Virus record (IMG/VR): IMGVR_UViG_3300021306_000185 | Source of the DNA: an uncultured virus (IMG/VR IMGVR_UViG_3300021306_000185) | Lineage: Duplodnaviria > Heunggongvirae > Uroviricota > Caudoviricetes | DNA length: 64,000 bases | Strand: one strand, 5' to 3' | In this document: in pieces, positions 1-50,794 of the stretch | Layout: every line of letters begins with the position of its first letter | Position numbering within the stretch: position 1 is the first letter of the stretch | Program-made: the position numbers and the translations under genes | The notes under the pieces: model-generated | The model's database searches: none | What the model saw: only the letters and a program-made list of their open reading frames with translations | What the model was told of the DNA's origin: nothing

Positions 1-1431
1 ATGAAAGCAAAGTTCAAACTCATACTTGGCCGCCGCAAGAATTATCCATTGCACATAGAGTTGGAAGTGTATAAGGGTGCTGACTGTAGAGTATTCATCT
101 CAACGGGCATTGTGCTTGAAAGTGCCAAGCAGTGGGACCCAGCCCGCCAGATTGTCGTTAAGCACACCAATGCGGAGCAGTACAACACGTTCATGCACGG
201 CATAATAGAGAACATTGAAACAGCGGAGAAGGATGCAGACGAGCATAACCGTCCATTCAATTCGATGGAAATAAAGGCAGCAGCTAAGAATCTTACGTCG
301 TTTGAAAGTGTGGACGTTATCGAGACGTTCAATAGGTATGTCGAGGAGGAGGAATGCAAGGCTAACACGCGAAAAGGACATAAGTATACAATGTCTTCAT
401 TCTGCAAGTTCATCAAGGAGTTCAAAGGAATCAAGAGCGCAAGACTTTCATTTAGCGAACTGAATTACGCCCTGATTGTCGAGTACGACAAGTATCTCAA
501 GGCAAACACGGGTAAAAATGGTTCTACGGCATTCAACTATCATATGTATCTGCGCAAGTTGTCACGCGAAGCCAAGCTGGATGGTCTAATACGAAATAAT
601 CCTTACGACGACTTCAATCTCGTCAAGGGGAAATCGACTCGTCGTCCATCGCTGACAACTGAGCAACTTGTGATTCTTGAGAATATTGACCGTAAAGCTC
701 TTGATGATGAACACATAAGTGAGGTGGTTCTTGACATGTTCCTGTTTTCCTGCTATACGGGACTGCGCTACAGCGATGTGAGCACGCTTCTCAAAAGTGA
801 ACTGCGCTACGACAAGAAAGGTATAGTGATTGAGCGAAAGACTCAAAAGACGGAAACCGATGTGGTTCTGCCTCTATATATGCTCTTCAATGGGAAGGCG
901 CAAAGAATAGCGGAGAAGTATATAAAGGAGCACGAAGACATAAATACTTTGTTTCCATCCCGAGTATTGCCAATCGTCAACAAGCATCTTCTGTCAATAG
1001 AAAAGTTCCTGCATCTGCCATTCCATCTCACTTTTCATGTGGCGCGTCATACTTGTGCTTCCCAATTGGCGGAGTTGGCCGACAATCCATTTGTCATCAT
1101 GCAAATTCTGGGACATGGGACTATACACACCTCGATGCGCTATATCCATAGGAGTCATAGGACTTCAGAGAAGAAACTTGCAGAAGTAGACTGGAGCGAT
1201 GCTGATGATATAGAGTATCCATCAAACGAGGAGACACTATCGATCTACAATAGCATAATTGAGGCTTGCAACGCAAAACAACTGTCCTCAGACCTCACTA
1301 ACATGGCGGTCGGTGCGGCGATGAGCAATTATCAGATGGCAGGAGAAATCAAGAATTGGATAAGCGGGCTAAAGAAAACCGACTACACGATGGAGGCTTG
1401 GGGCAAGAGATTGGAGATGGTGGTGGGGTAA
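1..1431 (+). CDS. Tyrosine recombinase/integrase, Bacteroidetes type, with C-terminal extension
   Basis: GLRYSD (R), HVARHT (HxxR), LGH, TSMRY (catalytic Y); arm-binding-like N-terminus. Confidence 0.95.
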   Translation: MKAKFKLILGRRKNYPLHIELEVYKGADCRVFISTGIVLESAKQWDPARQIVVKHTNAEQYNTFMHGIIENIETAEKDADEHNRPFNSMEIKAAAKNLTSFESVDVIETFNRYVEEEECKANTRKGHKYTMSSFCKFIKEFKGIKSARLSFSELNYALIVEYDKYLKANTGKNGSTAFNYHMYLRKLSREAKLDGLIRNNPYDDFNLVKGKSTRRPSLTTEQLVILENIDRKALDDEHISEVVLDMFLFSCYTGLRYSDVSTLLKSELRYDKKGIVIERKTQKTETDVVLPLYMLFNGKAQRIAEKYIKEHEDINTLFPSRVLPIVNKHLLSIEKFLHLPFHLTFHVARHTCASQLAELADNPFVIMQILGHGTIHTSMRYIHRSHRTSEKKLAEVDWSDADDIEYPSNEETLSIYNSIIEACNAKQLSSDLTNMAVGAAMSNYQMAGEIKNWISGLKKTDYTMEAWGKRLEMVVG

Positions 1432-7718: not shown

Positions 7719-7739
7719 GAGTAGCAAGTACGACCGAAA

Positions 7740-8136: not shown

Positions 8137-8724
8137 CTATATCCACCTCACCACTGTATCTCCCTTCCACCCCTTCTCCCACACGAACCACGCATACAGC
8201 GCCGCACTTCCTTTGGTTGTCTCGAAGTCGCCATTCATAGCGCACTTGATGCGACTGGTGAATATGTAGACGGCCTGTGGTGGATGCTCATCAAAGAACT
8301 TGCGACGAGCCTTGCCTTCGAGAAACTGTATGCGTAGGAACATACAGACCTTACGCCCATCGGGGATTAGTTCGAGTGCTTTCTGAACAAACTCCAACGC
8401 ATAGCGAAATGGCGGATTGGTCACTATGTCACCATTATGATGACGTGTGCATCGCAAGAAATCAATATTCGGCTTGCCGTAGCCTCGGTCGATAAGATCC
8501 GAAGCTGCGGCAAGTCTGCTGTATTGGGCAAACACCTTGGCCAAGTGTCCAGCACCACATGCTGGCTCCCAGATGTCGGTTAGCTTTGGTTCAACCTCCA
8601 ATAGCATCTTTGCCGCCTTCGGGTCGGTAGCATAGTAGTCGTTTGTCTCACGGTCGTGGTCGGCGTGACTGCTTGCACCAAGCGTAGCAAACGTAGAGCG
8701 AGTGTTTCCTGTCCAATCTTTCAT
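8137..8724 (-). CDS. Small phage-type amino-DNA methyltransferase
   Basis: DYYATDP, WEPACGAG and VTNPPF motifs. Confidence 0.88.
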   Translation of the reverse strand: MKDWTGNTRSTFATLGASSHADHDRETNDYYATDPKAAKMLLEVEPKLTDIWEPACGAGHLAKVFAQYSRLAAASDLIDRGYGKPNIDFLRCTRHHNGDIVTNPPFRYALEFVQKALELIPDGRKVCMFLRIQFLEGKARRKFFDEHPPQAVYIFTSRIKCAMNGDFETTKGSAALYAWFVWEKGWKGDTVVRWI

Positions 8725-9554
8725 GCCGTCTTCATGTTTAGCTCTATCTCTACCGCCAACGCCTGCTGCATCTGCTTGCGCTTACGTTTCGCTTTGACTT
8801 GGTTCGATTGTTTCGCCTGCGCTACCTCTTCCTTCTGCTGCTTGCGTAACGCATCCTTTGTCGGAAATAGATGGCTTTCTGGGTCTTTATGCTCTGGCTC
8901 TGTCGTATCACTCCAGAGTGACTTGCGGCGCTCGTCTGTCTTCATGTGCCTACGATGCTGAGCGTTGCGCGCCTCCACCTCGCCACTCGTACGCTGATAG
9001 TTGAGCCAACCGCCAGCTGCCTGCACATTCGAGCCACGCTCGAAGCCCTCCATGCGCTGAATGAAATGCTGCGTCTCATGGATAAGCACCGACTCCAAAT
9101 CGTAGTTTTCATCGCCATTGATGATGGGCACAACGAGTGTCTTATTGGCTTCGTCGAAGTAACCGAGCGTAGTAGAGCCTGGCGGCAACAACTTCACGAA
9201 CAGCTTGTAGTTCTTTAGCTCTGGATACATAGTCAGCAGACGCTCATCCTTGACCAACTGTGAAAACGGAGTCGCCATGCCATACGAATATGCCTGGTTG
9301 AGGACCTTCTGCTTCCAAAAGAAGTCAGGCACCTCGTACCGCCACTCCATGTCAGCACCACGCTCCCAACCCGTCGCCATCTTTATTGTCAGCGCATCCT
9401 TATCTTGAATCTCCATCTCCTGCGCAATGGAGAGGTTCTGCTGAAGTTCTTGATTGTTGTTGTGACTGTCCCAACGCTCGGCGGCCTTCTTGCCAATCCA
9501 CGCCATGCCGAGCCCATGGGGCGCAGTCAAGTGCAGTACGTTCTTCCTTGCCAT
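8721..9554 (-). CDS. LPD23-like domain plus zincin metallopeptidase (polyvalent-protein type)
   Basis: TGWERGADMEWRYE; LIHETQHFIQ..EGF (HExxH); GEVEARN. Confidence 0.75.
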   Translation of the reverse strand: MARKNVLHLTAPHGLGMAWIGKKAAERWDSHNNNQELQQNLSIAQEMEIQDKDALTIKMATGWERGADMEWRYEVPDFFWKQKVLNQAYSYGMATPFSQLVKDERLLTMYPELKNYKLFVKLLPPGSTTLGYFDEANKTLVVPIINGDENYDLESVLIHETQHFIQRMEGFERGSNVQAAGGWLNYQRTSGEVEARNAQHRRHMKTDERRKSLWSDTTEPEHKDPESHLFPTKDALRKQQKEEVAQAKQSNQVKAKRKRKQMQQALAVEIELNMKTA

Positions 9555-10366
9555 CAGAGTACGCCCATTAATCCGTTCAACTGGCTTTCCGTGAGGTCGA
9601 TGCGTTCTACACGATTGTTTATATAATCATCAAGAGCGTGCTTAGCATCTTGTAGTTCTGGCACGTCTGGCGCTTTTGCGAGGAATTTACGAGCCTTGCT
9701 AATCTCGGGTCTGCGATGCTCGTATGTACTTATGAACGTCTTTATCCACGTCGTGACATTCGATACATGCTCGGAATTGGCGATGTCTACGTACTTCTGC
9801 AAGTCCTCTATCTCAACACGGTCGAGGTTCTTCGTCCTGAGTACTCGCAGCAACTGTTCTTGAATAGTCTGCATCTCACTTGCGTATGCAGATGTCGAGC
9901 GAATGACTCGCGTATTTATGAGCTTCTGTAGCTTGCGAAGCAAGTTCAACGCATGCTGGTATGCAGCATCACGACTCTTGCCGTGAATCTTGATGTATTG
10001 CTGGATGATATCCACCTCGGGCGTAAGTATGTCAACCAATTCGCCCTTGGTTTTTGATGTTGGTTTCTTCTCCTTTGGCTTCTCTTTCGGTTCTGGCTTC
10101 GGTTTCTCTGGCTCTGGCTTCGGTTCTTCCTTAGTTCCCTGCTCGGCATAGAATCGATTAATTTCAGCAAACAACTGAGTGATGACATCTCGTTGCTTCA
10201 CGAAGTCGTCATCGTTCCAATCGTCCCAGTTTACTGATGGTTCAGCTTCGGAGTCGAGGAGCTGCCAAGCGTTGTTGGTGAAGACATTCGGCATGAAGCC
10301 CGCTGCGGTTATGTCTTGGCGAATCTGCTCGCGGTTCGCCCAATAGTTTTCGCGTGTTACATTCAT
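9554..10366 (-). CDS. Hypothetical protein with Pro/Glu/Lys linker, ending LNGLMGVL
   Basis: 270 aa ORF coupled to both neighbours. Confidence 0.7.
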   Translation of the reverse strand: MNVTRENYWANREQIRQDITAAGFMPNVFTNNAWQLLDSEAEPSVNWDDWNDDDFVKQRDVITQLFAEINRFYAEQGTKEEPKPEPEKPKPEPKEKPKEKKPTSKTKGELVDILTPEVDIIQQYIKIHGKSRDAAYQHALNLLRKLQKLINTRVIRSTSAYASEMQTIQEQLLRVLRTKNLDRVEIEDLQKYVDIANSEHVSNVTTWIKTFISTYEHRRPEISKARKFLAKAPDVPELQDAKHALDDYINNRVERIDLTESQLNGLMGVL

Positions 10367-10370
10367 ATTC

Positions 10371-13300
10371 TTAGTTGAAAAGTGTTCTGATTATGTGGTC
10401 TGCGTCGGCTGTCGCGAGGGTAAAGATGTGCGCCGAACCCTTGCGCTTATGGTCATCAACCGTGATGTCATAGCCATCGTCACAACGCCTCACAATGAGG
10501 TATCGCTTGTCGTAATTCTTAGCTATGAAACGTCTCAGTTGAGTCGCCCTTGACTTGATGCCATCAACGCCATTCATACCCTTATTGGCAGCCGCTTGAC
10601 GCATTAGGTTTAGTTCTATCTCAATAGCCAACGCCAACTGCATCGCCTTGCGTTTGCGCTTTGCCTTGGCGTCATTATTCTTCGGCTTGCCATCGGGAAT
10701 ATCGCTCGGACTCCAATCGAGGCGTTCCCATTCGTAGTTGTATCGGTCCGCCTGAATCTTGTCGTAGATACTCTGCGGAATATTCTTCGTAGGCACTTCG
10801 ATGCTATAACCCAAATTCGTCAAGCAATCGAGAATCTTCTGCTCGTTAGTGTCAACATAGTCGGGCATGTCACTCCACCACCTTACCTGCGGCTGGTACT
10901 CGAAGATGTACTGCTTCGGCATGTGCTTGAAGATGGGATAGATCTCCTTGAAGACGCTAGTCTTTAGCTCCTCAAACAGTCTATTCTGCATACTATCCGT
11001 CGAACTGGTCATGTACTTTACCATTACGTGTCGCGTGCCCTCAATCTTGAAGAAGAAGTCCACAGGCACGTCCGAACCGCTAATCTTGTAGATGGTTGAC
11101 TTGCAGCCGTAACCCTTGACGCTGCTCGGACTCACCTTGCACAACGGAAGTCCCCACTCGAACGGCAGGAACGTAGTGTCGGTCGATTTCTCCTCCTGTA
11201 TATTCTCGGGCATCAAGAGTCCTGGCACCCACTGCGTTTCGCCATTGCGAAGCTGCATTGTGAAGTAGATTGTCTGCGGACGACGAGAAGCCACAAGCGG
11301 CGAACGGAATGCATCGATGATATTGCCCGTGACAATGTAACGCCTCTCTATGCCGTTCTGAAGCTGCCGAATCTCATCGCGCCACATATTTATGGCCATT
11401 GCGCACTCCTCGAAGATTGTGTTATCGTTGTTGTAGTAGAACACGTTGTAGTCACCGACGTTCGGACTACCACTGTACTTATCCACGTGGTCAACGAGTT
11501 GCGTGAGTACCTCGAAACCTCCATTCTTGTCATTCGACACGAGGTTTATCTCATAGTGCTTGCACGACTTGGCGATGGCGAAGTGCAGTTTTATCTTGCC
11601 TGGTAGAAACTTGTCCTTGTCCTCCTTGCCGAACGAGATACTCGTAAGGATAGCCATGGGATAGACTTCCGTACCGTCCGACTGCGTGCGTTTGAGCGGC
11701 AAAAACTCACGAACGACATCACCGATGCGTATCTTCTTGAGGCCGTTTTTCACCTGCTCGCAAGTCGCTACATTTCTCTCGCTTGCCGCCTGCTCGTCGA
11801 GATTCAGTTTGTTGAGCTTCATCTGAAAGAGCTGCTTGGCATCGTCAATCTCGTCTTCGTCGGCGAGCGTCTTCACGAGATCTTCATATTCGTCGGTGAG
11901 TTTCTTTCGTCGAGCATCGAATGCTGGCTTGAACTGCGCACCATTCGTCCATCGGTTGGCGTACCACTGCGAGATTTCGTTCTCCAAATCGATGGATATG
12001 TAGCACCGCCCGCCATAGCCCTCGATGCCAGACTTGGTCATATTGACCACCTCCTCGGGCAGGTACGGTTTACCACCGACACGGCACTCGTATAGTCCTA
12101 TGTATGATGAGCCACCAAGCGATGACTTGACCTTCGCTCTGTACGTTAGCAAACGTTCCGAGATGAGCTTTGCCTGCATGTCGAGCCTTTGAGTCTCCAA
12201 GTCCCACAAGCCCATGGACTGCAAGTTCTTCTCCAACTCTTTGTAGTCGTCGATGATAGCCGAGAACATCTGTTCTTGTGCCGTAGTGTCGAAGATTGCA
12301 GCGTGTCCCGTTGCGTCCTTTGCGCATCCGTTTTGGCTGACCTTGCCGTCTGTATCGGGGAAGAGCATCTTCGCTTCCTGATCGTGCTGCGTGAGCCAGT
12401 TTTTCACAACCTCGTCGCCATACTTATTATCGAAGTCTACGAACTCGGAAACCACATTTTCGTTCTGACGTTGTGAACCAGTCGTGTTTGCATCGAGCGA
12501 CTTTAGCTTCTTACGGAGCATCATCATCGTGCGACTCTCGTATGGAATGAACGAGGTCACATACTCATAAATAGGCAACTTGACCTGACCTGTTCTATTG
12601 ATACGGCCTCGCTTCTGAATCTCCGTGGCTACGTTCAACTCTGGCTGTGCGATTATCATCACACGCTGACGAACCTTCTCCAATGGCACTTTACCAGGTA
12701 TGATCTTCGCATGTGCCGATGCTCCAGTTGCTCCAGCCGCATTAATAATGAGCACATCGATGTTGTTGCACTGGAAGTCGTTATACATCTTGCCCGTGTC
12801 AACTTTTTTGCGCTCAATGAGTTTGCCGAGCGTGAAGTCGTCGAGCTTTGGATATTCAAGACCGAGTTGACGGCCAGTACACTCTTCGACTCGTATCTTT
12901 CGTCCGCCAACATCTTCTTTCACGAGCATCTGCTTGATTAGGTCAATCGGCGAGAGTGGTATGCCGAACTTCTCGTCAAGAATCTCCTTCTTGATGCGCT
13001 CGTATTCCTGTCTGATGATGATGGACTCCTGCAACTGCGTGCCCGTAATTGTTCCTTCGGCAAAGAGTTTCGCATAGTCGAGGTCGAGAATAGTCTTCTG
13101 GTCTTTGTGACTGCCGTCCTCGTTTTCCTCCTCGTCCTTACCTTGCGAAATGACAAGCGAACGCTCCAAGATGAACAAGAGATACTGCGCAAAATCACCT
13201 CGCACTAAGTCACCAACCTTGACGTTTCGACCCATCAAGTTGATGAGTCGCTGCGGTTCAAGATGCGCTGCTGATGTCTGGCTCAGTCCGATTACAACAG

Positions 13301-14549
13301 CACGCCCATCCCTCACATGCTCAATCGTCTTTCGCACCACGCTCTTCGCCTTGATAGCGAGCAGAAGTGCATTAGTAATGACGAACATGTATGAGAATAT
13401 GCTGTATGGCTTGGCTGATTTAGGCAGTATCTTCTGCGCTTTGAGTTGCGAGATTAGTTCACGAACGTGCATGTTCTGGAGGCTCAGTGCATCTCTCACG
13501 AAACGCATAATGCGGTTGTAGTTGACATCGTCAATCTGCCTATCCGCCTCGTCTGTGTTGTTGTAGTTGACCTCAATCTTTGTGTTGTCTCGCTGGCGGC
13601 GTACCATCTGTCCGCTCTCCACGAGTAGCGAGGAGATCAACTCTTGCAATGGTATTCCACCACGACTTATGGCCAATGACAATGTGAGTGGCGTTGTGCA
13701 GTCCTTGAGTTTCGTTCTCTGTATGTATAGCAGCAAGTTCTTCGGAGCTTTGGCGAATGTTGCCGACAAGAACACCACGTCGCAGTCCTCTTCGCTGATG
13801 AGCGTTCGCATCACGTCACCACGGCTCGACTGACCAGCTGCGTTATGAGCCTCGTCGCATACATATATCGCTTTCCCAGATTTCGCTACGGCACTTAGGA
13901 ACGCCGTCTTCTCCTCGCTGTCGGATAGCTGCGAATAGGTGCAGAGGATATAGTCATAGCCATCGGGCATCTTCTTGCTCTTGAAGATCTTAGCCATCTC
14001 GGCATTCGGAAGCGGTTCGTAGACTGCCTCGTACTTCTCTGCACCAGGTGTCGAGTCGATGCACTTGTCGTAGTCGTAGACTGCGCCGTCCGAGTTTATG
14101 ATGAGTGGCTTGTAATGCGCGATGCCAGTATCTTTTGCATCCCTATAGAAATCCGAAAAGAGGTTCTTCTTCTCGGTGAAGAATATTGGCAGTCTTCCAT
14201 TCTCTTTGGCGTATCTGACGATGCCAGCCGCCTGACGGCCTTTGCCCACACCCGTCTCGTCGCCACACACCATGGCCTCATGCCGAGCTTCAATGTTGTA
14301 TATTGCGAGCGCGATGGAGTCAACTTGCTCCGCCTTGAAGTACTGCGCCAGTTGGTCTCTGCTTATCTTGAGCCTTGCGCATACGAAGCCCGCCACATCG
14401 CCACCAAGTGCTTTGTCAAGTCGCTCAAGAGCCGACCTCATGCCTTCATCCATTGAGTCTGGGATTAGCGTATCGAGCGTCTCCACGCCCTTTGCTGCTG
14501 GTGTATATACTCCGTCGAGCGCGGCGTTCTTTCTATTTCGTCTGGTCAT
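10371..14549 (-). CDS. Strawberry-notch family SF2 helicase
   Basis: GDETGVGKGRQ Walker A, DEAH, LSAT, GATGASAHA, QKRGRINRTGQ, LKSLDANTT. Confidence 0.9.
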   Translation of the reverse strand: MTRRNRKNAALDGVYTPAAKGVETLDTLIPDSMDEGMRSALERLDKALGGDVAGFVCARLKISRDQLAQYFKAEQVDSIALAIYNIEARHEAMVCGDETGVGKGRQAAGIVRYAKENGRLPIFFTEKKNLFSDFYRDAKDTGIAHYKPLIINSDGAVYDYDKCIDSTPGAEKYEAVYEPLPNAEMAKIFKSKKMPDGYDYILCTYSQLSDSEEKTAFLSAVAKSGKAIYVCDEAHNAAGQSSRGDVMRTLISEEDCDVVFLSATFAKAPKNLLLYIQRTKLKDCTTPLTLSLAISRGGIPLQELISSLLVESGQMVRRQRDNTKIEVNYNNTDEADRQIDDVNYNRIMRFVRDALSLQNMHVRELISQLKAQKILPKSAKPYSIFSYMFVITNALLLAIKAKSVVRKTIEHVRDGRAVVIGLSQTSAAHLEPQRLINLMGRNVKVGDLVRGDFAQYLLFILERSLVISQGKDEEENEDGSHKDQKTILDLDYAKLFAEGTITGTQLQESIIIRQEYERIKKEILDEKFGIPLSPIDLIKQMLVKEDVGGRKIRVEECTGRQLGLEYPKLDDFTLGKLIERKKVDTGKMYNDFQCNNIDVLIINAAGATGASAHAKIIPGKVPLEKVRQRVMIIAQPELNVATEIQKRGRINRTGQVKLPIYEYVTSFIPYESRTMMMLRKKLKSLDANTTGSQRQNENVVSEFVDFDNKYGDEVVKNWLTQHDQEAKMLFPDTDGKVSQNGCAKDATGHAAIFDTTAQEQMFSAIIDDYKELEKNLQSMGLWDLETQRLDMQAKLISERLLTYRAKVKSSLGGSSYIGLYECRVGGKPYLPEEVVNMTKSGIEGYGGRCYISIDLENEISQWYANRWTNGAQFKPAFDARRKKLTDEYEDLVKTLADEDEIDDAKQLFQMKLNKLNLDEQAASERNVATCEQVKNGLKKIRIGDVVREFLPLKRTQSDGTEVYPMAILTSISFGKEDKDKFLPGKIKLHFAIAKSCKHYEINLVSNDKNGGFEVLTQLVDHVDKYSGSPNVGDYNVFYYNNDNTIFEECAMAINMWRDEIRQLQNGIERRYIVTGNIIDAFRSPLVASRRPQTIYFTMQLRNGETQWVPGLLMPENIQEEKSTDTTFLPFEWGLPLCKVSPSSVKGYGCKSTIYKISGSDVPVDFFFKIEGTRHVMVKYMTSSTDSMQNRLFEELKTSVFKEIYPIFKHMPKQYIFEYQPQVRWWSDMPDYVDTNEQKILDCLTNLGYSIEVPTKNIPQSIYDKIQADRYNYEWERLDWSPSDIPDGKPKNNDAKAKRKRKAMQLALAIEIELNLMRQAAANKGMNGVDGIKSRATQLRRFIAKNYDKRYLIVRRCDDGYDITVDDHKRKGSAHIFTLATADADHIIRTLFN

Positions 14550-19148: not shown

Positions 19149-20087
19149 ATGAAGACCGAACAGCTGTGGTATCGCATGTCTGCTAACTCTCATGAATTAC
19201 CGAGCGTTATAGCCATGCGTAAGAAACTAGGCTGGGAAGGTTTCGGAATTTATGTTGGCATACTCGGTTTGCTTCGCAGTTCAAGAGACGGCTCTCTACC
19301 CACCGATTTCGATTCGTTCGGTTGGCATCTGCGTTGTCCGAACGGCATAGTCAAGTCTGTAATTATGGATTTTGGCCTATTTACGATTTCCGAAGATGGA
19401 ACTCGCTTCTTCGACCAGGATCTAATAGACGAGATGAAGCAGTATCAGAGTGCGCTCGATGAGCGGCGGGAAGCTGGAAGACGCAGCGCCGAAAGGCGTT
19501 GGGGAGCTAAAACTGACCAAAACTCAAATGGAGATGCTACATCCGAACCTGACCCAAGCGCCATAACGACCGAAAAACAAGCCAAAATCATGGGTGACCC
19601 ATCGAAAATTGTAACGGCCGTTACCGATTTCGATGCTATAAACAAACAAATAAAGAAAGAAACAGATAATACTTCGTATTGTTTTAGGGGAACGCCCGAT
19701 GGCGTTGTTTTGCCGAGAACAGAAATTCAAGAAGATTATTTCAATCAGCTTGATGAGCGATGGCAAGCAATAGTGATGCGGTGGTATGCCCACAAGAAAG
19801 AAATGTCGCCAAAGCTTAAAGGCCTTGCGAGCATCAAAAAGCAGGTTGAACTCCTACTTGAAATGTCGGAGGGAAATGCAGACTATGCCGAGGCTATCGT
19901 GGAGTACTCCGTCAAGCAGGGCTATGCGGGACTGTACAAGCCAGCCCAGGGCCGCGGCGACAAGGTCACGAAACCGAGCAAAAAGAAGGAAGTGAAATAC
20001 TCAAACGACACATGGAAAAACTCAGAGGTGAGTCTGCCGCGAGTCGAGTTAACAATCGACGAGAATGGCAATCCATGCCCGTTCTAA
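19149..20087 (+). CDS. Phage replication initiator-like protein (DUF4373/Lin1244-like N-terminus)
   Basis: LGWEGFGIY...VKSVIMDFGLF; RREAGRRSAERRW; lies upstream of the DnaC-like gene. Confidence 0.75.
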   Translation: MKTEQLWYRMSANSHELPSVIAMRKKLGWEGFGIYVGILGLLRSSRDGSLPTDFDSFGWHLRCPNGIVKSVIMDFGLFTISEDGTRFFDQDLIDEMKQYQSALDERREAGRRSAERRWGAKTDQNSNGDATSEPDPSAITTEKQAKIMGDPSKIVTAVTDFDAINKQIKKETDNTSYCFRGTPDGVVLPRTEIQEDYFNQLDERWQAIVMRWYAHKKEMSPKLKGLASIKKQVELLLEMSEGNADYAEAIVEYSVKQGYAGLYKPAQGRGDKVTKPSKKKEVKYSNDTWKNSEVSLPRVELTIDENGNPCPF

Positions 20088-20118
20088 CAAATAGAAAGCT
20101 ATAGCAAAAACAGAAAGC

Positions 20119-20868
20119 ATGGGCGATATTCTCAGCGAGATGCGTAAGCAGCATCCTCAAATTTCGTTCGTAAGGCGAGTAGAGGGAAAACCGATGGGGC
20201 GAGATTCGCTTCTAACGTATTGGGACCATCTGATACAGATAGGTAAGTTGTGCATTCCTGCATTCATCATCGACGACGATAACTCATTCGTCTACAAGAA
20301 CCTCATGTTATGGGCGCTTGCCGACCCTTCGTGCAAGGCAATTGACCCCGAGACCGCAAAAGAGATACCTGCGGACTTGAACAAGGGCATCTTTATCAGC
20401 GGAAAAACTGGCACGGGTAAGAGTGTGGCGCTTGAAGTGCTTCGCGAGTTCGTGAGAGAAGTCAGAGACCGTGGTTTCTACATCAACGGAATCTGCGAGA
20501 ACCTGACGTGGACAAACTTCCGTGCCGATGACATTGTGGACAGATTCTGTGAGGGCGAGAGCCTACGATGGATGAAGAAAGCGGCGATGCTTGGCATTCA
20601 GGACTTGGGCAGCGAACCGACGGAGGCCATCTACATGGGCAATCGCCACGAGTTGCTTCGTCTAATCCTCGAAAGCCGTGCAGACTATAGTACAGTAACC
20701 CTCGTGACATCCAACTTTGCAATGCTAGCACCAGAGCTGCGCAAGAAGTATGGTGACCGTGTGCAGAGCCGATGCCGCGAGATGTTCAACTACTACGTGC
20801 TCGGAGGCGAGGATAGAAGAGTTAACAAGAAAGGAAATCAAGAGGTTACAACTCTAAGCAACCAATGA
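20119..20868 (+). CDS. DnaC/IstB-like helicase-loader ATPase
   Basis: GKTGTGKS, IQDLGSE, TSN and YGDRVQSR motifs. Confidence 0.85.
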   Translation: MGDILSEMRKQHPQISFVRRVEGKPMGRDSLLTYWDHLIQIGKLCIPAFIIDDDNSFVYKNLMLWALADPSCKAIDPETAKEIPADLNKGIFISGKTGTGKSVALEVLREFVREVRDRGFYINGICENLTWTNFRADDIVDRFCEGESLRWMKKAAMLGIQDLGSEPTEAIYMGNRHELLRLILESRADYSTVTLVTSNFAMLAPELRKKYGDRVQSRCREMFNYYVLGGEDRRVNKKGNQEVTTLSNQ

Positions 20869-36448: not shown

Positions 36449-37489
36449 ATGAACAGCAAGGCAATTATACTCATTGGGGCTATAGGGGCGTTGGCGGTCA
36501 TACTACTGAGGAAAGTCAGAGGGTATGCCGACATGGCGCAGCAGATTTCTTTCGTGCCGAAGGTCTACGACAAGCCGAAGATCAGTCTGTCGAAACTCAC
36601 CATACCCATCTGCATCGACATCACCAACCCAACCGCGGAGAAGGCAACTGTGACCGTTCTTCAAGGCTCGGCAATCATTGCAGGGCGTGAAGTCGCAAAA
36701 GTGGATGTGCCTGAGGAGGGAGCGACTGTTGTCATTTCGCCGAATAGCACAAGCAGACTCAAAGGACTGAGTATCGCTATACCAATCAACAACCTACTCA
36801 CCACAATTCTCGACAATCTCAATGACCTCATGAGCAAAGATTTCACGAAGGTCATTGCCAATACGTCGTTGCAGTTTGCTGTGACAGTCAACGGACTGGC
36901 AACTATCAGCGGCAACATGAGGTTTGACAAACAGACGTCGCTTGGTAGCCTTGGACTCACGGCATCGAGCAAACGAAGCATACGCCCACTTAGCGACTAC
37001 GCAGCGCTAATCCCACCACGCACAGAACTTCGCCGTGAAGACGCAATCAGAATGAGCAGCGCAGCGCCTGAGCAGACGGTCTTGTTTATGCACAAGGTGA
37101 TACGTGAGACGACAAGCGATACAGCACGTTTGGCACAGTCGCTACGTGCATCATCTCTACGAGAGACCCTTCAAAACATCTGGAACTTCGTCTATCAGCA
37201 TATCCAGTACGTACCTGACTCGGCTGTCATGGAGCAGGTTCGCAGACCATTGCGCACGCTCTACGACCAGAAAGGCGACTGCGATTGTTACGCTACGCTC
37301 ATAGGCAGCATACTTACAAACCTCGGCATTACATTCTCATTGCGCATAGCTAAGTACAATGGGCGTAGCTACTTCCAGCACGTCTATGTGGTCGTGCGCG
37401 ATGGCGACAAGGAACTCGTCGTTGACCCTGTTGTAGACAAGTGCTTCTACGAGAAGAAACCATCAGAGAAAAAGGATTTTCCGTGCTAA
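36449..37489 (+). CDS. N-terminal TM, LEA2-like beta-sandwich, transglutaminase-fold Cys enzyme; candidate maturation protease
   Basis: IWNFVYQHIQY..D, GDCDC, QHVYV and VDPV give a Cys-His-Asp triad. Confidence 0.75.
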   Translation: MNSKAIILIGAIGALAVILLRKVRGYADMAQQISFVPKVYDKPKISLSKLTIPICIDITNPTAEKATVTVLQGSAIIAGREVAKVDVPEEGATVVISPNSTSRLKGLSIAIPINNLLTTILDNLNDLMSKDFTKVIANTSLQFAVTVNGLATISGNMRFDKQTSLGSLGLTASSKRSIRPLSDYAALIPPRTELRREDAIRMSSAAPEQTVLFMHKVIRETTSDTARLAQSLRASSLRETLQNIWNFVYQHIQYVPDSAVMEQVRRPLRTLYDQKGDCDCYATLIGSILTNLGITFSLRIAKYNGRSYFQHVYVVVRDGDKELVVDPVVDKCFYEKKPSEKKDFPC

Positions 37490-37507
37490 CCACAACTAAG
37501 ACTCACT

Positions 37508-39841
37508 ATGCAACTTCAATATCTAAACGGCATAACATTAGGCGCAACGCAGACGCTCTTCGACAGTGTGCAGCATCAGTTACTGCATACAAGAGCGGAT
37601 GTTGACTCTGTCGTTGGCGGCTTTGACCTCGATAACTATGAAGGTCTCAATACCGCTAGCGACACAGAGAAGATCCGAGCATACCTAATACGAACAAAGA
37701 AAATAGCCGACCAATCGCCAGCACTCATTCAGTCAACGCGCAACCCAGAGACGTTCTCGCAAATGTGCGCTTACATACTTCATTATTGGGACTCATCAGA
37801 GCGTGAACAAGCAGCACTCTTGATGGCGCAAAAAGAACGACAGCTCTTTGCACATGGCATGATACGTCGTGTCGAGGGTGACGAGTTCGGCTCAGAGTTC
37901 TTCAAGGCGTTGTATATGATGCTGAGGCCGCAGAGCGAGATTGCAGGACTATGTGGAGCGGCCATACTAAGACGCGCCAAGAACAAGCTACGCAGCAGCA
38001 TACGTACAGCACGCCAAAACAACCAAGATACATCTTCTGCCATAGCAAGTACGATCCGCCGACACCGCAAGAGTCGTAGTGCGAACACTCCCAATCTGTC
38101 GGGCGTTGATGACCCTATGGACGAACTCACGCTCTGCGGTGTCGTGTACGGATTGGAAGACGAATACTATGGCGGCGATGAGACTAACAGACGTTATCTT
38201 ACTCGCTTGCATAACGCCATCGATGAAGCACCTACACTCTTCTTTCCGACAGAACGTGAAGCTCGTGCCGTAGTCAGTGGACTTGGTTCAGTGCTCGATT
38301 ACTGGGACAATAAGGAGTTGCGTGATATTGCACTAACGCAGGCGCAGAATAACCCTGCACTCACGCAGCAATCATCGGGACTCTTTGGTCGCTTACGCAA
38401 GGCATTCAAGAAAATCGGCAAAGGCATCAAGAAGGTGGCACAGACTGTTGGCAAGGGCGTTAAGACTGCGGCTCAGGCAGTAGCCAAAGGCGTCAAGTCG
38501 GCAGCCAAGGCAGTCGCGAAGATTACCAAGAAGATTGGCAAAAAGATAGCCAAAGTTGCGAAGAAGGTCGTCAAGTTCCTCATACGATTCAATCCTGTTA
38601 CGGCCATTATGCGAGCCATTCTATGTCTCTGCGCACGTTGCAATTGGTTCTCACTCGCGAGCAAATGCTATCCAGGCTCTTTGAGTGAAGCAGAGGCATT
38701 GAAAATCGGCATAAGCAAGGCTGACTACGAGAAGAAGTACAAGCCGTCGTATGCAAAGTTCAAGTCAGTCTTTGAAAAGATTGGCGGTAAGGAATCGAAA
38801 CTCAAATCGCGCCTAAAGACTGGCTACGGACGCAAGGCAAAAGGTGACCTGAATACGAGCATCACTAAATCAAGCCTAACTAAGCTATACGAGGAGGGCG
38901 AGAAAGATGCTAAGGAGGAAGTAGCCGACGAGAAAGCACAACTCAAGCAAGAAGGCGCAGTCGAGGACTCGACAGTGCCAGCAGGCGAGATCGTCAAGAC
39001 GCAAGTGACAGTCGAGGTGGCTGAGAACGCCATCACTACAACTGCTGCGGCATCGCTATACGAGTCAGCAACATCGACAAAAGTTCTCGCAAACATACCC
39101 GCAGGTACGTCACTTCTATATGATACGACAACCAATAACGCAACCTACTACAACGTCAACTACGGCGGTCAGAATGGCTATGTAAAGAAATCGCTCTGCC
39201 GTGCTGCGACCGATGCCGAGGCTCAGAAGTTACAGACGACCGACACAACTAAAACCGTAACCGTTGATGCTCCAGTTAGCGGATTGTTCGGTTTGGGCTA
39301 CGTAGAGCCAATGACACTCGCAGCGATAGCAGGAACAGTTTCAACAATCACAGGACTTGTTGCGAGTGTTGCCAAGGCCTTCGGCAAGGACAAGGCGGCA
39401 AGCGTGGCAGAGACCGTAAATACCACGACGAAACTTGCTCAGGGCATAGCAACGAACATCAAACAGGCGAAATCTGAGACTACGAGCAGTGCAGCAAAGA
39501 CGGATGCAAGCAAGAGTAAGGTCGCTACCATCCTCGACAAGGGCATGAAGATAGCCGATACCGTCAAGCAGATAACAGCCGACTTCGCACCAACGAAGCA
39601 GGTTGAGCCGACATACATATCGCCAGCGTCATCGACATCGCCATCTTCAGAGCCGTCATCAGTATCACCAATCAACCAAACACCTACAGAGACCGAGTCC
39701 GCCAGCAGTCAACCGCAAACAACAACCGCAAACACTTCGTTTAGCGTAGCTCTCGCGCCCGCAACGAAGAAGTATCTCATCATTGGCGGTGTAGCACTCG
39801 TTGGCGGACTCGCAGTCTTTGCTCTCACCCGAAAACGATAG
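37508..39841 (+). CDS. Multi-segment putative virion membrane/entry protein (basic amphipathic helix, SH3b-like domain, C-terminal TM)
   Basis: K/A-rich periodic helix, YYNVNYGGQNGYV, terminal hydrophobic helix. Confidence 0.6.
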   Translation: MQLQYLNGITLGATQTLFDSVQHQLLHTRADVDSVVGGFDLDNYEGLNTASDTEKIRAYLIRTKKIADQSPALIQSTRNPETFSQMCAYILHYWDSSEREQAALLMAQKERQLFAHGMIRRVEGDEFGSEFFKALYMMLRPQSEIAGLCGAAILRRAKNKLRSSIRTARQNNQDTSSAIASTIRRHRKSRSANTPNLSGVDDPMDELTLCGVVYGLEDEYYGGDETNRRYLTRLHNAIDEAPTLFFPTEREARAVVSGLGSVLDYWDNKELRDIALTQAQNNPALTQQSSGLFGRLRKAFKKIGKGIKKVAQTVGKGVKTAAQAVAKGVKSAAKAVAKITKKIGKKIAKVAKKVVKFLIRFNPVTAIMRAILCLCARCNWFSLASKCYPGSLSEAEALKIGISKADYEKKYKPSYAKFKSVFEKIGGKESKLKSRLKTGYGRKAKGDLNTSITKSSLTKLYEEGEKDAKEEVADEKAQLKQEGAVEDSTVPAGEIVKTQVTVEVAENAITTTAAASLYESATSTKVLANIPAGTSLLYDTTTNNATYYNVNYGGQNGYVKKSLCRAATDAEAQKLQTTDTTKTVTVDAPVSGLFGLGYVEPMTLAAIAGTVSTITGLVASVAKAFGKDKAASVAETVNTTTKLAQGIATNIKQAKSETTSSAAKTDASKSKVATILDKGMKIADTVKQITADFAPTKQVEPTYISPASSTSPSSEPSSVSPINQTPTETESASSQPQTTTANTSFSVALAPATKKYLIIGGVALVGGLAVFALTRKR

Positions 39842-39843
39842 AT

Positions 39844-40341
39844 ATGGCAAACATAACCACAGCATCGGCACTCAAGAATCTGGCATCAGTCGGCAAGCGC
39901 GTTGTAGCTACGAAGACCGATCCACTCAATCTGCGCCAAGCACCGACAACGTCGAGCCTCTCGCTACTACGCATTCCACGTGGTGCGACAGTGGATGTCC
40001 TCAACTGCACGACTACGAGCGGATGGACACCTGTGCGCTACAACACTACCGAGGGCTTCGTCTCGTCACAGTATCTTGCAATGCCGAGTACAACTCCGAC
40101 AGTCAAAGACACGCCACAGTCAGATGTCACATCTACAATAGTCACAAACCAACCATCTAACAACAACTCAATAATGGGCGAAAAAATCAAGAAATACGGC
40201 AAGTACGTCCTCATAGCGGCAGGCGTTGGCATCGTCGCTTTTGCGGGCTATAAGCTAATGAACAAGAGCAGCGGCGGCAGCTCCCGTAAGCGCAGTAAAT
40301 CGCTCAACGGCATCTCGCGCAAACCGCTCCGACTCAAGTAA
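39844..40341 (+). CDS. SH3b domain, TM helix and basic tail
   Basis: LNLRQAP...IPRG..V...GW..VRY...GFVSSQYL. Confidence 0.8.
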   Translation: MANITTASALKNLASVGKRVVATKTDPLNLRQAPTTSSLSLLRIPRGATVDVLNCTTTSGWTPVRYNTTEGFVSSQYLAMPSTTPTVKDTPQSDVTSTIVTNQPSNNNSIMGEKIKKYGKYVLIAAGVGIVAFAGYKLMNKSSGGSSRKRSKSLNGISRKPLRLK

Positions 40342-40367
40342 CCAAACCACTCAAACATCACAACAAC

Positions 40368-40874
40368 ATGGCAAAATCATCATTCACACGTGCCGTCAAC
40401 TCGGACAGTCTCAAGCGCATCGGTTGTATGCTGCTTGGCGTGGGTGTCGGGACGTTCATCAGCCGCAAACTATCTGACACCGTGCAGACATCGGGCGTGG
40501 ACGGCATCTCCAACTACGCCCACTACATCGGTCCAGCAGCCGTCGCCATAGCAGGTCTCATGGCGCATCAGTCGTCTAAGGACGGAATGCTTCGCGACGT
40601 GGCTCTCGGCGCTTCCATCTCGGGCGCATCGACAATCGTCAACAACGTCATCGGCAAGCAGGTCGTCTCTCTCAATGGCGACGTAGAACCGCTTCTCCCT
40701 GGCATGGGCGGCGACATCCCATTGCTTCCATCTGAGAACTATGCAGCCACTCACTACGAGGCAGAACCCGAGGACGCATCAGCCGAGGAAGTGCCCGTTG
40801 ACAACGTCGAAGGCATAGGCTCAGACCTCGCACCAGTTGACCTTTCGGGTATCGAAGAGGCAGCAATCGTGTAG
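40368..40874 (+). CDS. Membrane protein with acidic tail
   Basis: Two or three Gly-rich hydrophobic helices. Confidence 0.7.
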   Translation: MAKSSFTRAVNSDSLKRIGCMLLGVGVGTFISRKLSDTVQTSGVDGISNYAHYIGPAAVAIAGLMAHQSSKDGMLRDVALGASISGASTIVNNVIGKQVVSLNGDVEPLLPGMGGDIPLLPSENYAATHYEAEPEDASAEEVPVDNVEGIGSDLAPVDLSGIEEAAIV

Positions 40875-40918
40875 GTCGCAAACCGACAGAATAAATAACC
40901 ACAAAACCATCAATTCAA

Positions 40919-41560
40919 ATGGCAAAAACAGTAAACGTCAACGCCTCAGAGCAGGCAACAGTCATAGGCGGAAAGCTCGTCAAGAAGCATGGCTCAGTAG
41001 GTACTTACGACTCGTCCGCAAAGGTCGAGTTCGAGAGCCGTCTCGCGCTCCTCGACGAGGCAGTCGCAAAGGCCGTAGTCAATGGAAATCTCAAGATTGT
41101 AGACTACGAAATCTACTCCACCAAGTGTCTCAGCGAGTCAACCACTGTTGAGCTTATGGAATCAGCCGACCAAAAGAAAGTCGGTCTCCGAAACCTCAAT
41201 AAGCGTCAGCTTGAGGCCAACACCTACGCAGGCATTCAGTTCATTCAGATACTCTATTCCGAGTCGTCTGACACCGAGGATAAGGCGCGTGTAGCTACCG
41301 ATTGGAAGCCAATTAGCGACTCACTTCTCCGCAATGGCGAACTCGAAATCAAGCAGGGCGATAAGATCATCTATCCACGCAACTCCATGGAGTGCTTCTG
41401 CACCAAAGCCGATGCACAGCACGGACTTCAAGGCATGAAGCGACTGGAGAACATGAAGATTCTCGTTCCTCTCACCGACATCGTGCCGACGCTTTGGCTC
41501 CCAGCAGCTGCCAAGGGCGCAATCAAGATCGTCTTCAAAGGAGTCAAGAACAACGGCTAA
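40919..41560 (+). CDS. Candidate major capsid protein, single jelly-roll-like
   Basis: 213 aa soluble protein, N-terminal helices then about 8 alternating strands ending IKIVFKG; central in the operon; fold unverified. Confidence 0.45.
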   Translation: MAKTVNVNASEQATVIGGKLVKKHGSVGTYDSSAKVEFESRLALLDEAVAKAVVNGNLKIVDYEIYSTKCLSESTTVELMESADQKKVGLRNLNKRQLEANTYAGIQFIQILYSESSDTEDKARVATDWKPISDSLLRNGELEIKQGDKIIYPRNSMECFCTKADAQHGLQGMKRLENMKILVPLTDIVPTLWLPAAAKGAIKIVFKGVKNNG

Positions 41561-41614
41561 CAGGCATAGCCTGATTTAACTGTCAATTTTCAATTCTCAA
41601 TTTTCAATTGACCC

Positions 41615-42976: not shown

Positions 42977-42988
42977 CCACAAACAACC

Positions 42989-43393
42989 ATGAAGAGAAGC
43001 TTTCAGATATTCAGGAACATAATAGCCAAGGGCATAATCGAGAGTACCGACTCGGAGACGAATAAAGTCACGGCGGGCGGCAACATTGTGTCGCTGACGG
43101 ACCAGCTGCGCCAGGACTTTACGAAATGCGTGGGCGTGTTCGTCGTGCCACAGTCGGCAAGCACCGATTTGTCGGGCGTGACATGCTCGCTAAAGATTGC
43201 GCAGAACGAGATACTGCCAGACGGCTTCGACCTCTCGCTCATCGCGTTCAAAGGCGAGGTGTCGCTCGGGCAGACGATTTACGATTTCTCTAAAGATGAG
43301 ATACCAGCCAAGTCGAGCGAGTTCGAGATGATCCTAACGAACAACACCAAGACCGACCAGATGTTCAACCTCTATTTCGTGCTTGAGCGATGA
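42989..43393 (+). CDS. Small beta-sandwich-like structural protein (penton candidate)
   Basis: Alternating strands, e.g. CSLKIAQNEILP and FNLYFVLE. Confidence 0.5.
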   Translation: MKRSFQIFRNIIAKGIIESTDSETNKVTAGGNIVSLTDQLRQDFTKCVGVFVVPQSASTDLSGVTCSLKIAQNEILPDGFDLSLIAFKGEVSLGQTIYDFSKDEIPAKSSEFEMILTNNTKTDQMFNLYFVLER

Positions 43394-45426: not shown

Positions 45427-45428
45427 CC

Positions 45429-47593: not shown

Positions 47594-47628
47594 ACTCTTA
47601 ACTCTAAACTTTTAACTCTTAACTATTT

Positions 47629-48021: not shown

Positions 48022-48040
48022 CCACTAATCCCGAACCACC

Positions 48041-48751: not shown

Positions 48752-48790
48752 ATTAATCCGAAAATATTACCGCAAAAGTAATAAATTACC

Positions 48791-50382: not shown

Positions 50383-50394
50383 CACGTAATAATC

Positions 50395-50712: not shown

Positions 50713-50741
50713 TGCAGCTCTCATCGCAACAACAATAATCT

Positions 50742-50774
50742 TGAAACGCTGATGCCAATCACGTCAGCGTTTCA
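50742..50774 (+). terminator. Hairpin
   Basis: TGAAACGCTGA/TCAGCGTTTCA perfect 11-bp stem. Confidence 0.55.
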
Positions 50775-50794
50775 TTCATACAATCATCGAACTC

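What the first reader, a model, noticed from the sequence alone, without database searches (positions are those of the whole stretch)
8736..10668. Two unrelated enzymes share a 20-aa C-terminal tag
Seen: KAKRKRKQMQQALAVEIELN ends the LPD23/zincin protein (about 8736-8796). KAKRKRKAMQLALAIEIELN lies near the end of the Strawberry-notch helicase (about 10608-10668), just before GMNGVDG. Many DNA differences are synonymous. Inference: a portable signal for packaging cargo into the virion or delivering it with the DNA.
Basis: partly seen in the sequence, partly recalled or inferred. Interest (0 to 1): 0.8.

Follow-up and report, generated by a model that had tools for sequence, protein, structure and literature searches.

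The report
Charge-coded docking tag for viral enzymes
Unrelated enzymes of an apparently undescribed tailless virus hidden in Bacteroidota genomes carry the same short peptide tag, and the small protein encoded between them switches its charge whenever the tag does, which points to a private lock-and-key system that probably loads these enzymes into the virus particle, although neither binding nor packaging has been shown.

Summary
The tag is real: 17 of 20 residues identical, 7 synonymous versus 3 non-synonymous codon changes, only two copies in the genome. It is terminal in the LPD23-zincin but 78 residues from the helicase end. It is one dialect of a family-wide system. Related Bacteroidota proviruses with a single-jelly-roll capsid candidate put an element-specific tag on helicases, methyltransferases and LPD/PBECR proteins. 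Tags are basic or acidic, and the label changed at least four times. The gene between the two tagged genes (9554-10366) is the likely receptor. Its N-terminal helical domain carries the opposite charge in 27 of 27 training elements and in 39 of 39 non-redundant new elements under a rule fixed beforehand. Giant fused helicases of other viral contigs have neither tag nor receptor (0 of 54). Best model: a tag-adaptor docking system, probably loading DarB-like enzymes into the virion. It works like the T4 and P1 capsid-targeting sequences but is not one of them. Direct binding and packaging are inferred; co-folding was unavailable.

The parts
8736..8795 (-). Tag copy 1, aa 254-273 of the LPD23-zincin, 4 residues before the stop
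10608..10667 (-). Tag copy 2, aa 1295-1314 of the Strawberry-notch helicase, 78 residues before the stop
8721..9554 (-). Tagged cargo 1: LPD23 domain plus zincin metallopeptidase (HExxH at aa 159-163, 9066-9080), 277 aa
   Evidence: Pfam LPD23 E 2.6e-08; motifs
10371..14549 (-). Tagged cargo 2: Strawberry-notch-like SF2 helicase, 1392 aa
   Evidence: Pfam Helicase_C_4 E 9.4e-18, AAA_34 E 2.1e-14
9554..10366 (-). p270, proposed adaptor: N-domain, disordered K/P/E linker, tandem helical C-domain, ending in an LNGL motif; fused or adjacent to a RadA/KaiC-like ATPase in most relatives but not here
   Evidence: AlphaFold2 model pLDDT 82; profile hits; no Pfam, PHROG or NCBIfam family; ATPase
10139..10366 (-). 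p270 N-domain (aa 1-76, four helices, net charge -8): predicted tag-binding domain
   Evidence: charge anticorrelation with the tag; net charge; helices
9581..10042 (-). p270 C-domain (aa 109-262), two three-helix repeats; proposed anchor to the virion core or DNA (inferred)
10560..10577 (-). MNGVDG, an L/M-x-G type motif after the internal tag; candidate processing site
   Evidence: 32 of 39 internal tag copies are followed by [LMVI].?G within 18 aa, background 31%; cleavage itself is inference
8137..8724 (-). Untagged DNA methyltransferase closing the operon
   Evidence: phrog_799 E 1.8e-64; no tag
40919..41560 (+). Major capsid protein candidate, single jelly roll, 213 aa
   Evidence: model pLDDT 85.9; best VIA match SPV1 capsid Z 8.6, rmsd 3.7, 144 aligned
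36449..37489 (+). Membrane-anchored transglutaminase-fold protein with Cys, His, Asp motifs; candidate maturation protease
   Evidence: Pfam DUF553, Transglut_core; motifs and N-terminal hydrophobic stretch
36449..51091 (+). Virion and lysis module of the element (LxG-rich membrane proteins, conserved small proteins, amidase, a 105-aa protein with 36 K/R)
1..1431 (+). Tyrosine integrase facing the cargo operon
   Evidence: Pfam Phage_integrase
19149..20868 (+). Replication initiator-like protein and DnaC-like loader
   Evidence: phrog_2562 (weak), phrog_50

Best explanation
The 20-mer is a docking peptide. It most likely forms a helix with two hydrophobic stripes and charged edges and binds the N-terminal helical domain of the adaptor p270, encoded between the two tagged genes. 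Each element has its own tag dialect, and the charged residues of tag and adaptor are complementary, so specificity is set per element. Any accessory enzyme that gains the tag at a free end or in a linker is recruited to p270. p270, through its C-domain, most likely ties this cargo to the core of a tailless, membrane-containing single-jelly-roll virion, so that DarB/DdrB-like enzymes (helicase, adenine methyltransferase, zincin, nucleases) enter the next host with the DNA. LxG motifs after internal tags and after the p270 C-domain are probably cut during maturation. SHOWN: shared, element-specific, protein-level conserved tags; cargo identity; charge co-variation with p270N; co-occurrence with the capsid gene. 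INFERRED: physical binding (about 0.85), helix geometry, virion loading (about 0.7 given binding), cleavage (about 0.5), anti-restriction role.
For: (1) In 21 hand-picked loci the helicase tail matches a non-helicase protein of its own locus at score 45 or more in 13 of 21 cases versus 15 of 420 cross-locus pairs; 0 of 100,000 permutations reach the mean; in those 13 pairs 81 of 150 conserved non-M/W residues use different synonymous codons. (2) The window's own genome holds a second element with a different tag shared by its helicase and a 1062-aa methyltransferase-bearing protein. (3) Tag charge versus p270N charge: all 18 basic tags pair with a core charge of -4 or lower and all 9 acidic tags with -1 or higher; Spearman -0.63; 173 control windows from the p270 C-domain and the helicase reach -0.50 at most. 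(4) A rule written down before the new loci were analysed held in 61 of 61 new non-neutral cases and 39 of 39 after removing near-copies at 90% identity; one further tag was neutral. (5) The acidic label needs 5 changes on a quick helicase tree, at least 4 forced by starred branches; G453 (basic) sits inside an acidic group and L128 (acidic) inside a basic group, and p270N follows in both. (6) The co-varying p270N columns 33, 37, 40 and 54, 55, 59 (r -0.69 to -0.84, 62 pairs) have helical spacing on two helices of the model. (7) One element encodes a 109-aa protein made of only p270N plus a tag (L384). (8) Five elements with a fused methyltransferase-helicase keep a single tag in the stretch examined (34-39 kb for four, 22 kb for L069), so a third party is needed. 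(9) Of 122 new complete helicases, 65 of 68 short ones have a tag and 63 of 68 lie beside p270; 0 of 54 giant ones have tag, p270 or this capsid gene. (10) In 133 family genomes the capsid gene is in 42, p270 in 45, both in 39; four genomes whose helicase loci showed no tag partner or no p270 (G098, G102, G107, G120; 91-98% complete) gave no hit for either gene (the G098 helicase itself was not inspected). (11) Tagged partners carry LPD1, LPD3, LPD23, PBECR1 and methylase domains, the polyvalent-protein domains that PMC5512222 (passages) predicts are delivered with the DNA; DarB and DdrB are head proteins of P1 (PMC9024508, passages).
Against: No binding, virion or expression data. Charge co-variation could reflect an indirect contact, and related elements are not independent: the independent switches number about four or five, not 39. 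The core columns and the tag score cut-off of 33 were chosen after seeing data; with the whole domain the two classes touch at -2. Nothing shows what the p270 C-domain binds: its net charge is 0 in the window. No tag was found in 24 capsid and 46 other core structural ORFs, and no charge signal was found in them, so the link to the particle rests on co-occurrence and the shared LxG motif. The capsid assignment has only a middling Z (8.6; a non-viral enzyme scores 8.1). 7 of 39 internal tags, including the zincin tags of the window's own clade, lack a following LxG. The window's methyltransferase is untagged. Six genomes have p270 without a capsid hit (several are fragmented).
Confidence: 0.6

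Rival explanations
1. Same tag-p270N docking, but the complex stays in the cell: p270 scaffolds helicase, methyltransferase, peptidase and the RadA-like ATPase on element DNA for replication, modification or defence, like a dockerin-cohesin or polyketide docking pair, and is never packaged.
For: All co-variation evidence fits equally. p270 is usually fused to or next to a RadA/KaiC-like ATPase, which PMC5512222 links to DNA manipulation (passage). No core structural protein carries or tracks the tag.
Against: Tag and p270 disappear with the capsid module while the helicase and an LPD23 gene persist. p270 ends in the LxG motif that is enriched in the virion genes. Cargo differs freely between elements, including elements without this helicase, which suits a loading signal better than a fixed machine.
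Confidence: 0.25
2. The tag is homotypic: tagged enzymes stick to each other, or polymerise through alternating charged and hydrophobic residues, without a third partner.
For: Strict alternation of hydrophobic and charged residues; two hydrophobic stripes allow tag-tag contact on one face. Many fused proteins keep two tags.
Against: Tags of one element carry the same strong charge (down to -8 or up to +9) and would repel; single-tag elements exist; it does not explain the p270N anticorrelation.
Confidence: 0.06
3. The tag addresses host or conjugative machinery: a type IV or type IX secretion signal, a DNA-binding basic tail, or a protease degron.
For: Mostly near the C-terminus (103 of 142 copies within 25 aa of the stop); basic in the window; some helicases end in LAA, a ClpX-type ending (recalled).
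Against: Two elements in one host use different tags; about as many tags are strongly acidic; 39 of 142 copies are internal and one is near an N-terminus; no signal peptide on the cargo; no secretion-system family among the 43 window proteins scanned and no sorting-domain hit; a circular form of the element is typed non-mobilizable.
Confidence: 0.05
4. A recent DNA duplication or chance low-complexity match with no function.
For: The two genes are 1.9 kb apart and the DNA is 47 of 60 identical.
Against: Synonymous excess in the window (7 versus 3) and across 13 pairs (one pair is 16 of 16 identical with 10 synonymous changes); sharp edges; recurrence with different sequences in many lineages.
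Confidence: 0.01

Closest known systems
T4 capsid targeting sequence (CTS) of internal proteins IPI-IPIII (PMC9026906, passages)
   Same: Short portable peptide shared by otherwise unrelated accessory proteins; affinity for a core protein rather than the shell; proposed there as a way to add new cargo.
   Different: CTS is a 10-residue N-terminal propeptide removed by gp21 in a tailed HK97-type head. This tag is about 16-20 residues, mostly C-terminal or internal, appears retained, has a dedicated co-varying adaptor with charge-reversed dialects, and sits in a tailless single-jelly-roll element.
P1 Dar system and the DarB N-terminal packaging signal (PMC9024508, passages)
   Same: Cargo of the same kind (methyltransferase-helicase dyad, zincin, DdrB-like ParB); a peptide of under 30 residues suffices there to load a reporter.
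   Different: That paper found no consensus among Dar N-termini; here all cargo of an element shares one tag and a receptor candidate is identified.
Polyvalent proteins of phages and conjugative elements (PMC5512222, passages; supplements not available)
   Same: Same domain set: Strawberry-notch SWI2/SNF2 ATPase, adenine methyltransferase, MPTase, LPD1/3/23, PBECR1, DdrB-ParB, SMS/RadA of Bacteroidetes.
   Different: There the domains are joined covalently, and the Bacteroidetes SMS/RadA proteins were assigned mainly to conjugative elements or plasmids. Here the domains are often separate genes linked by a tag, beside a jelly-roll capsid module; the text has no hit for 'jelly', 'tailless' or 'transglutaminase'.
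Encapsulation peptides of bacterial microcompartments (PMC4594438, abstract); encapsulin cargo-loading peptides and cohesin-dockerin pairs (recalled)
   Same: About 17-residue amphipathic helical extensions at either end of unrelated enzymes of one locus that bring them into a shell or onto a scaffold.
   Different: Cellular organelles; the peptide meets shell proteins, not a viral adaptor; no sequence relation tested or expected.
Portogloboviridae (SPV1) and other vertical single-jelly-roll viruses (PMC8459092, whole text)
   Same: Best structural matches of the capsid candidate (SPV1 Z 8.6, HCIV-1 8.2, P23-77 VP17 7.5); membrane proteins and a highly basic protein in the module.
   Different: Host is Bacteroidota; element roughly 35-50 kb, integrating or plasmid-borne, with replication and lysis genes; SPV1 is a 20-kb archaeal non-lytic virus.

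Membership tests
T4-type capsid targeting sequence | N-terminal position, about 10 residues | tested here: not met
   Window copies at aa 254 of 277 and 1295 of 1392; 103 of 142 copies within 25 aa of the stop, 39 internal
T4-type capsid targeting sequence | Shared by unrelated accessory proteins of one virus | tested here: met
T4-type capsid targeting sequence | Sufficient to load a foreign protein into the particle | not testable with these tools
   needs a reporter fusion
T4-type capsid targeting sequence | Removed by the maturation protease | tested here: inconclusive
   LxG follows 32 of 39 internal tags (background 31%), which would leave the tag on the cargo; cleavage not shown
P1 Dar-like antirestriction cargo | Adenine methyltransferase plus SF2 helicase dyad | tested here: met
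   Fused or adjacent in most relatives. In the window itself the family methyltransferase profile gave no hit; a different methyltransferase closes the operon
P1 Dar-like antirestriction cargo | Present in virions and protects incoming DNA | not testable with these tools
   no isolate matched in INPHARED
Polyvalent proteins (Iyer 2017) | Characteristic domain set (LPDs, MPTase, SNO ATPase, PBECR, SMS/RadA) | tested here: met
Polyvalent proteins (Iyer 2017) | Disparate domains in one polypeptide | tested here: inconclusive
   Only LPD23+zincin in the window; methyltransferase-helicase fusions in many relatives; giant fusions lack the tag
Type IX secretion cargo | N-terminal signal peptide and C-terminal sorting domain | tested here: not met
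   No hydrophobic N-terminus; no NCBIfam or Pfam sorting-domain hit
Type IV secretion substrate | Basic C-terminal signal and an element-encoded relaxase or T4SS | tested here: not met
   45 of 62 new tags acidic; no such family among 43 window proteins scanned; pPP10 typed non-mobilizable
Single-jelly-roll tailless viruses (Portogloboviridae, Singelaviria) | Single-jelly-roll major capsid protein | tested here: inconclusive
   Confident jelly-roll model; 9 of the top 12 VIA rows are viral capsid proteins but best Z is 8.6; Foldseek PDB no E below 0.001
Portogloboviridae | Archaeal host, about 20-kb genome without recognisable replication initiator | tested here: not met
   Bacteroidota hosts; DnaC-like loader and integrase; definition from PMC8459092
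Single-jelly-roll tailless viruses (Portogloboviridae, Singelaviria) | FtsK/A32-type packaging ATPase (recalled for Singelaviria) | tested here: inconclusive
   The only conserved P-loop protein in 7 other elements is the p270-linked RadA/KaiC-like ATPase, and the window lacks it

The most novel reading that the evidence does not exclude
An undescribed family of tailless single-jelly-roll viruses of Bacteroidota loads a freely exchangeable set of enzymes into its particles through a two-part address system: a 16-20-residue tag on each cargo and a 65-75-residue adaptor domain. The pair has flipped polarity repeatedly, giving naturally orthogonal lock-and-key dialects that keep co-resident elements from loading each other's cargo, and replacing the giant covalent polyvalent proteins of other phages.
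Probability: 0.5. Interest if true: 0.92.

Novelty: new variant of a known kind. Interest (0 to 1): 0.83.

Why it matters
How anti-defence and host-takeover enzymes get into virions is known for few phages, and the P1 study read here found no shared signal among its Dar proteins. Here sequence alone yields both the signal and its probable reader, with dozens of natural cognate pairs of opposite polarity, so the question can be tested with two small recombinant parts. It would show that tagging is an alternative to covalent polyvalent proteins, define a virus family that is common in one Bacteroidota family (capsid gene in 42 of 133 genomes) and appears to lack cultured representatives, and supply a natural library of orthogonal peptide-domain pairs. 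A cultured marine strain carries the whole module on a circular plasmid.

Tried and rejected
Capsid protein as receptor: it is 94% identical between the window and G111 although their tags differ clearly, and column-wise charge scans of the capsid protein and eight other conserved families gave no column that followed L128 convincingly (noisy alignments, inconclusive). p270 C-domain as receptor: no compensation. 'Fusion to p270 replaces the tag' (G128, G129): not upheld, those helicases hold an internal stretch like the end of their ParB protein. Tag profile against 1.84 billion representatives: only 3 hits, a helicase and two zincin-tail fragments, so the window's dialect is clade-restricted; a 32-column profile is weak. 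Fold searches with the p270 model: nothing informative (Foldseek best E 0.81; VIA best Z 6.8 on generic helical bundles, N-domain barely tested); ESM Atlas no usable hit. BFVD search with the capsid model: weak jelly-roll matches only. INPHARED: no capsid match, one weak ATPase-part match. No attachment-site repeat was found within the window. A first LxG pattern that missed the xLG form gave 5 of 24 versus 18% background; the wider pattern was chosen after seeing those sequences. L057 (frameshifted helicase) was left out, L057 and L058, and four window-clade or C16-type rows of its statistics; at least two rows (G099, L068) were mis-registered. Literature: ten full-text searches listed no paper describing this tag, this adaptor or this virus family; the library lacks most subscription papers, and the supplements of PMC5512222, which could name these domains, could not be read.
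Full report
Observation. They share 17 of 20 residues; 10 codons are identical, 7 differ synonymously and 3 non-synonymously; similarity stops at both edges. No third copy exists in the six frames of the 3.55-Mb genome (scores 87 and 86, next independent site 33). The proteins are otherwise unrelated. One is an LPD23 domain plus a zincin, the other a Strawberry-notch helicase. In the helicase 78 residues follow the tag. Among 27 database relatives of the zincin, 13 have this tag (4 of them internally), 4 a shifted version, 1 diverges before it, and the 9 distant ones lack it.

The element. The operon (helicase, p270, zincin, methyltransferase) faces an integrase at 1-1431; replication genes lie at 19149-20868 and a conserved module at 36449-51091 holds a transglutaminase-fold protein, membrane proteins, an amidase and a 213-aa protein. 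That protein folds confidently (pLDDT 85.9) as a single jelly roll; its best structural matches are capsid proteins of SPV1 (Z 8.6, rmsd 3.7, 144 aligned), HCIV-1 (8.2), EhV-201 (8.1), PBCV-1 (8.0) and P23-77 (7.5), with a non-viral enzyme at 8.1. I read the element as a tailless provirus; the Z values alone do not prove it. Close relatives are titled as Marinilabiliaceae. The helicase is in 44 of 133 family genomes, own genome included, and in 5 of 400 other genomes sampled from the phylum. No isolated phage matched, but the circular, non-mobilizable 53-kb plasmid pPP10 of Persicobacter psychrovividus carries the module with a tagged helicase, a tagged methyltransferase and p270.

The tag is a family trait with dialects. 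Other lineages carry different peptides at the helicase end, and the same peptide recurs on other proteins of that element: a KLRAKAIL type in many Marinilabiliaceae, an acidic ELEAEAL type, RLRIAKAKAK, ALQLEMEMEFEF and more. The window's own genome has a second element whose helicase and a 1062-aa protein share yet another tag. In 21 hand-picked loci the helicase tail matched a protein of its own locus at 45 or more in 13 cases, against 15 of 420 cross-locus pairs, mostly between elements of one dialect; no permutation of 100,000 reached the observed mean. In those 13 pairs, 81 of 150 conserved residues use different synonymous codons. The eight misses include loci without a capsid module and elements whose methyltransferase is fused to the helicase. 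Tagged partners bear adenine and cytosine methylase, LPD1, LPD3, LPD23 and PBECR1 domains. Elements in which my helicase pattern found no gene also tag their large accessory proteins (L382, L386, L391). In 65 new tagged loci there were 85 tag copies in helicase frames, 11 in methyltransferases, 3 in other proteins and none in 24 capsid, 46 other core structural or 61 p270 ORFs. Of 142 distinct copies, 103 lie within 25 residues of the stop and 39 are internal.

The receptor. The gene between the two tagged genes, p270 (9554-10366), has no family in Pfam, PHROGs or NCBIfam but follows the helicase throughout the family. Its model has a four-helix N-domain (aa 5-76), a disordered linker and a helical C-domain. 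Scans for charge compensation in the C-domain, the capsid protein and other conserved proteins were negative or inconclusive. The N-domain showed it plainly: in 27 elements all 18 basic tags go with a core charge of -4 or lower and all 9 acidic tags with -1 or higher (Spearman -0.63; whole domain -0.62), while 173 control windows never fell below -0.50. The core columns were chosen on this set. I then wrote down a rule and applied it to loci from a metagenome and a viral scan: it held for 16 of 16 basic and 45 of 45 acidic tags, with one neutral tag; after removing helicases 90% identical to the training set or to each other, for 12 of 12 and 27 of 27 (Spearman -0.77, n 40). The tag cut-off of 33 was set after seeing the scores. 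Kinship inflates these counts, but the polarity switched repeatedly: the acidic label needs 5 changes on a quick helicase tree, at least 4 forced by starred branches, with G453 basic inside an acidic group and L128 acidic inside a basic one; L261, 83% identical to acidic-type helicases, has a basic tag and an acidic N-domain. The responsible columns (33, 37, 40, 54, 55, 59; r -0.69 to -0.84) are spaced as on two helix faces, and the tag's hydrophobic residues fall into two stripes if it is helical (geometry is inference). The window fits: tags +4, N-domain -8. In L057, a near relative with a 94% identical capsid protein, helicase and zincin tags have both shifted to an RK-x-WML form and p270 is only 60% identical. 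One element encodes a 109-aa protein that is just an N-domain plus a tag. Co-folding was not available, so binding is inferred from co-variation.

Link to the virion. Of 122 new complete helicases, the 68 under 2300 aa have a tag in 65 and p270 in 63; the 54 giant ones, all from viral contigs, have no tag, p270 or this capsid gene. In the host family the capsid gene occurs in 42 genomes, p270 in 45, both in 39. Helicase loci of G102, G107 and G120 showed no tag, and these genomes and G098 gave no hit for capsid gene or p270. Five elements with a fused methyltransferase-helicase have one tag in the stretch examined, others keep two in one chain, so the tag is not merely joining cargo to cargo. 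p270 ends in LNGL, a motif type enriched in the window's virion genes (16 sites in six ORFs of 2103 aa, p270 included, versus 1 in 3105 aa of three control ORFs), and 32 of 39 internal tags are followed by such a motif within 18 residues (background 31%; pattern widened). None of this shows packaging.

Mechanism and rivals. Most likely (0.6): tag helix docks on p270N, p270 ties the cargo to the virion core, and the enzymes enter the next cell with the DNA to methylate, remodel or protect it, as DarB does for P1. Next (0.25): the same docking builds an intracellular complex that is not packaged. Homotypic assembly (0.06), host export or degradation signal (0.05) and neutral duplication (0.01) each fail at least one test above.

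Comparison with known systems. It works like the T4 capsid targeting sequence (PMC9026906, passages) and the P1 DarB signal (PMC9024508, passages), but fails the T4 definition (N-terminal, 10 residues), and the P1 study found no shared consensus. The cargo is that of polyvalent proteins (PMC5512222, passages; supplements unreadable), whose authors placed the Bacteroidetes SMS/RadA proteins mainly in conjugative elements. In form it recalls microcompartment encapsulation peptides (PMC4594438, abstract). The capsid resembles that of Portogloboviridae (PMC8459092, whole text) without meeting that family's definition; the passages read in the survey of double-jelly-roll viruses (PMC5894146) do not describe this group, and bioRxiv 2025.08.03.668216 (abstract) concerns another element. 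Ten searches listed no description of tag, adaptor or family.

Verdict. Observation confirmed; interpretation partly supported and extended by a receptor candidate with strong, out-of-sample co-variation. New variant of a known kind; interest 0.83.

Noticed in passing
window 36449-51091; relatives G029, G004, G270, L394: The virion module itself appears to define an undescribed family of tailless single-jelly-roll proviruses of Bacteroidota; several genomes hold up to four copies, and no phage in INPHARED matched.
   Followed up: partly
L394 34060-48721 (NZ_AP025302.1, plasmid pPP10): Whole module on a circular non-mobilizable plasmid of a cultured marine strain; a second copy lies on plasmid pPP1 (L395). 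A phage-plasmid form and an experimental handle.
   Followed up: partly
own genome C16:7325-42201: Second element of the family in the same host, with its own tag dialect and a p270 fused to the ATPase.
   Followed up: yes
own genome C17:290094-295074; G102, G107, G119:C19, G120, L127: Strawberry-notch helicase loci without capsid module, tag or p270; in several the helicase ends in a helix like the last helix of p270 and is followed by a lone LPD23-zincin. Possibly domesticated remnants.
   Followed up: partly
L384 3452-3778: 109-aa protein made of a p270 N-domain plus a tag: a possible chain extender or specificity converter.
   Followed up: no
window 14600-51200: Gene order differs from G111, where structural genes, helicase, p270 and zincin run in one direction; the block looks inverted, with defence-type genes inserted (DUF6079, methylase, Z1 at 21758-34672).
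   Followed up: no
L066 905-1744 and related capsid genes: Many capsid proteins have an acidic N-terminal extension ending in EGIG followed by an arginine-rich arm, like a cleavable propeptide; the window's capsid protein lacks it.
   Followed up: no
window 50395-50712: 105-aa protein with 36 K/R and 1 D/E ending near an LNG motif; candidate nucleoprotein.
   Followed up: no
C16, G004, G029, G194, G270, G493, L394: The only conserved P-loop protein of the module is the RadA/KaiC-like ATPase after p270; it could be the packaging motor, yet the window's element lacks it.
   Followed up: partly
window 51288-64000: Separate Mu-like tailed-phage genes (tape measure, Mu-like protease, DUF2586 sheath, two coat-like paralogues) with a 101-nt inverted repeat at 52881-52981 and 62326-62426 that may mark an inverted segment, and heptamer repeat arrays at gene borders.
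   Followed up: no
window 1780-8117: Accessory genes between integrase and cargo operon: HIT-methyltransferase, HNH nuclease, DUF6088 with an AbiEii-type gene, ankyrin protein.
   Followed up: no
window 46699-46871: 54-nt tandem repeat inside the 175-aa virion-module ORF.
   Followed up: no
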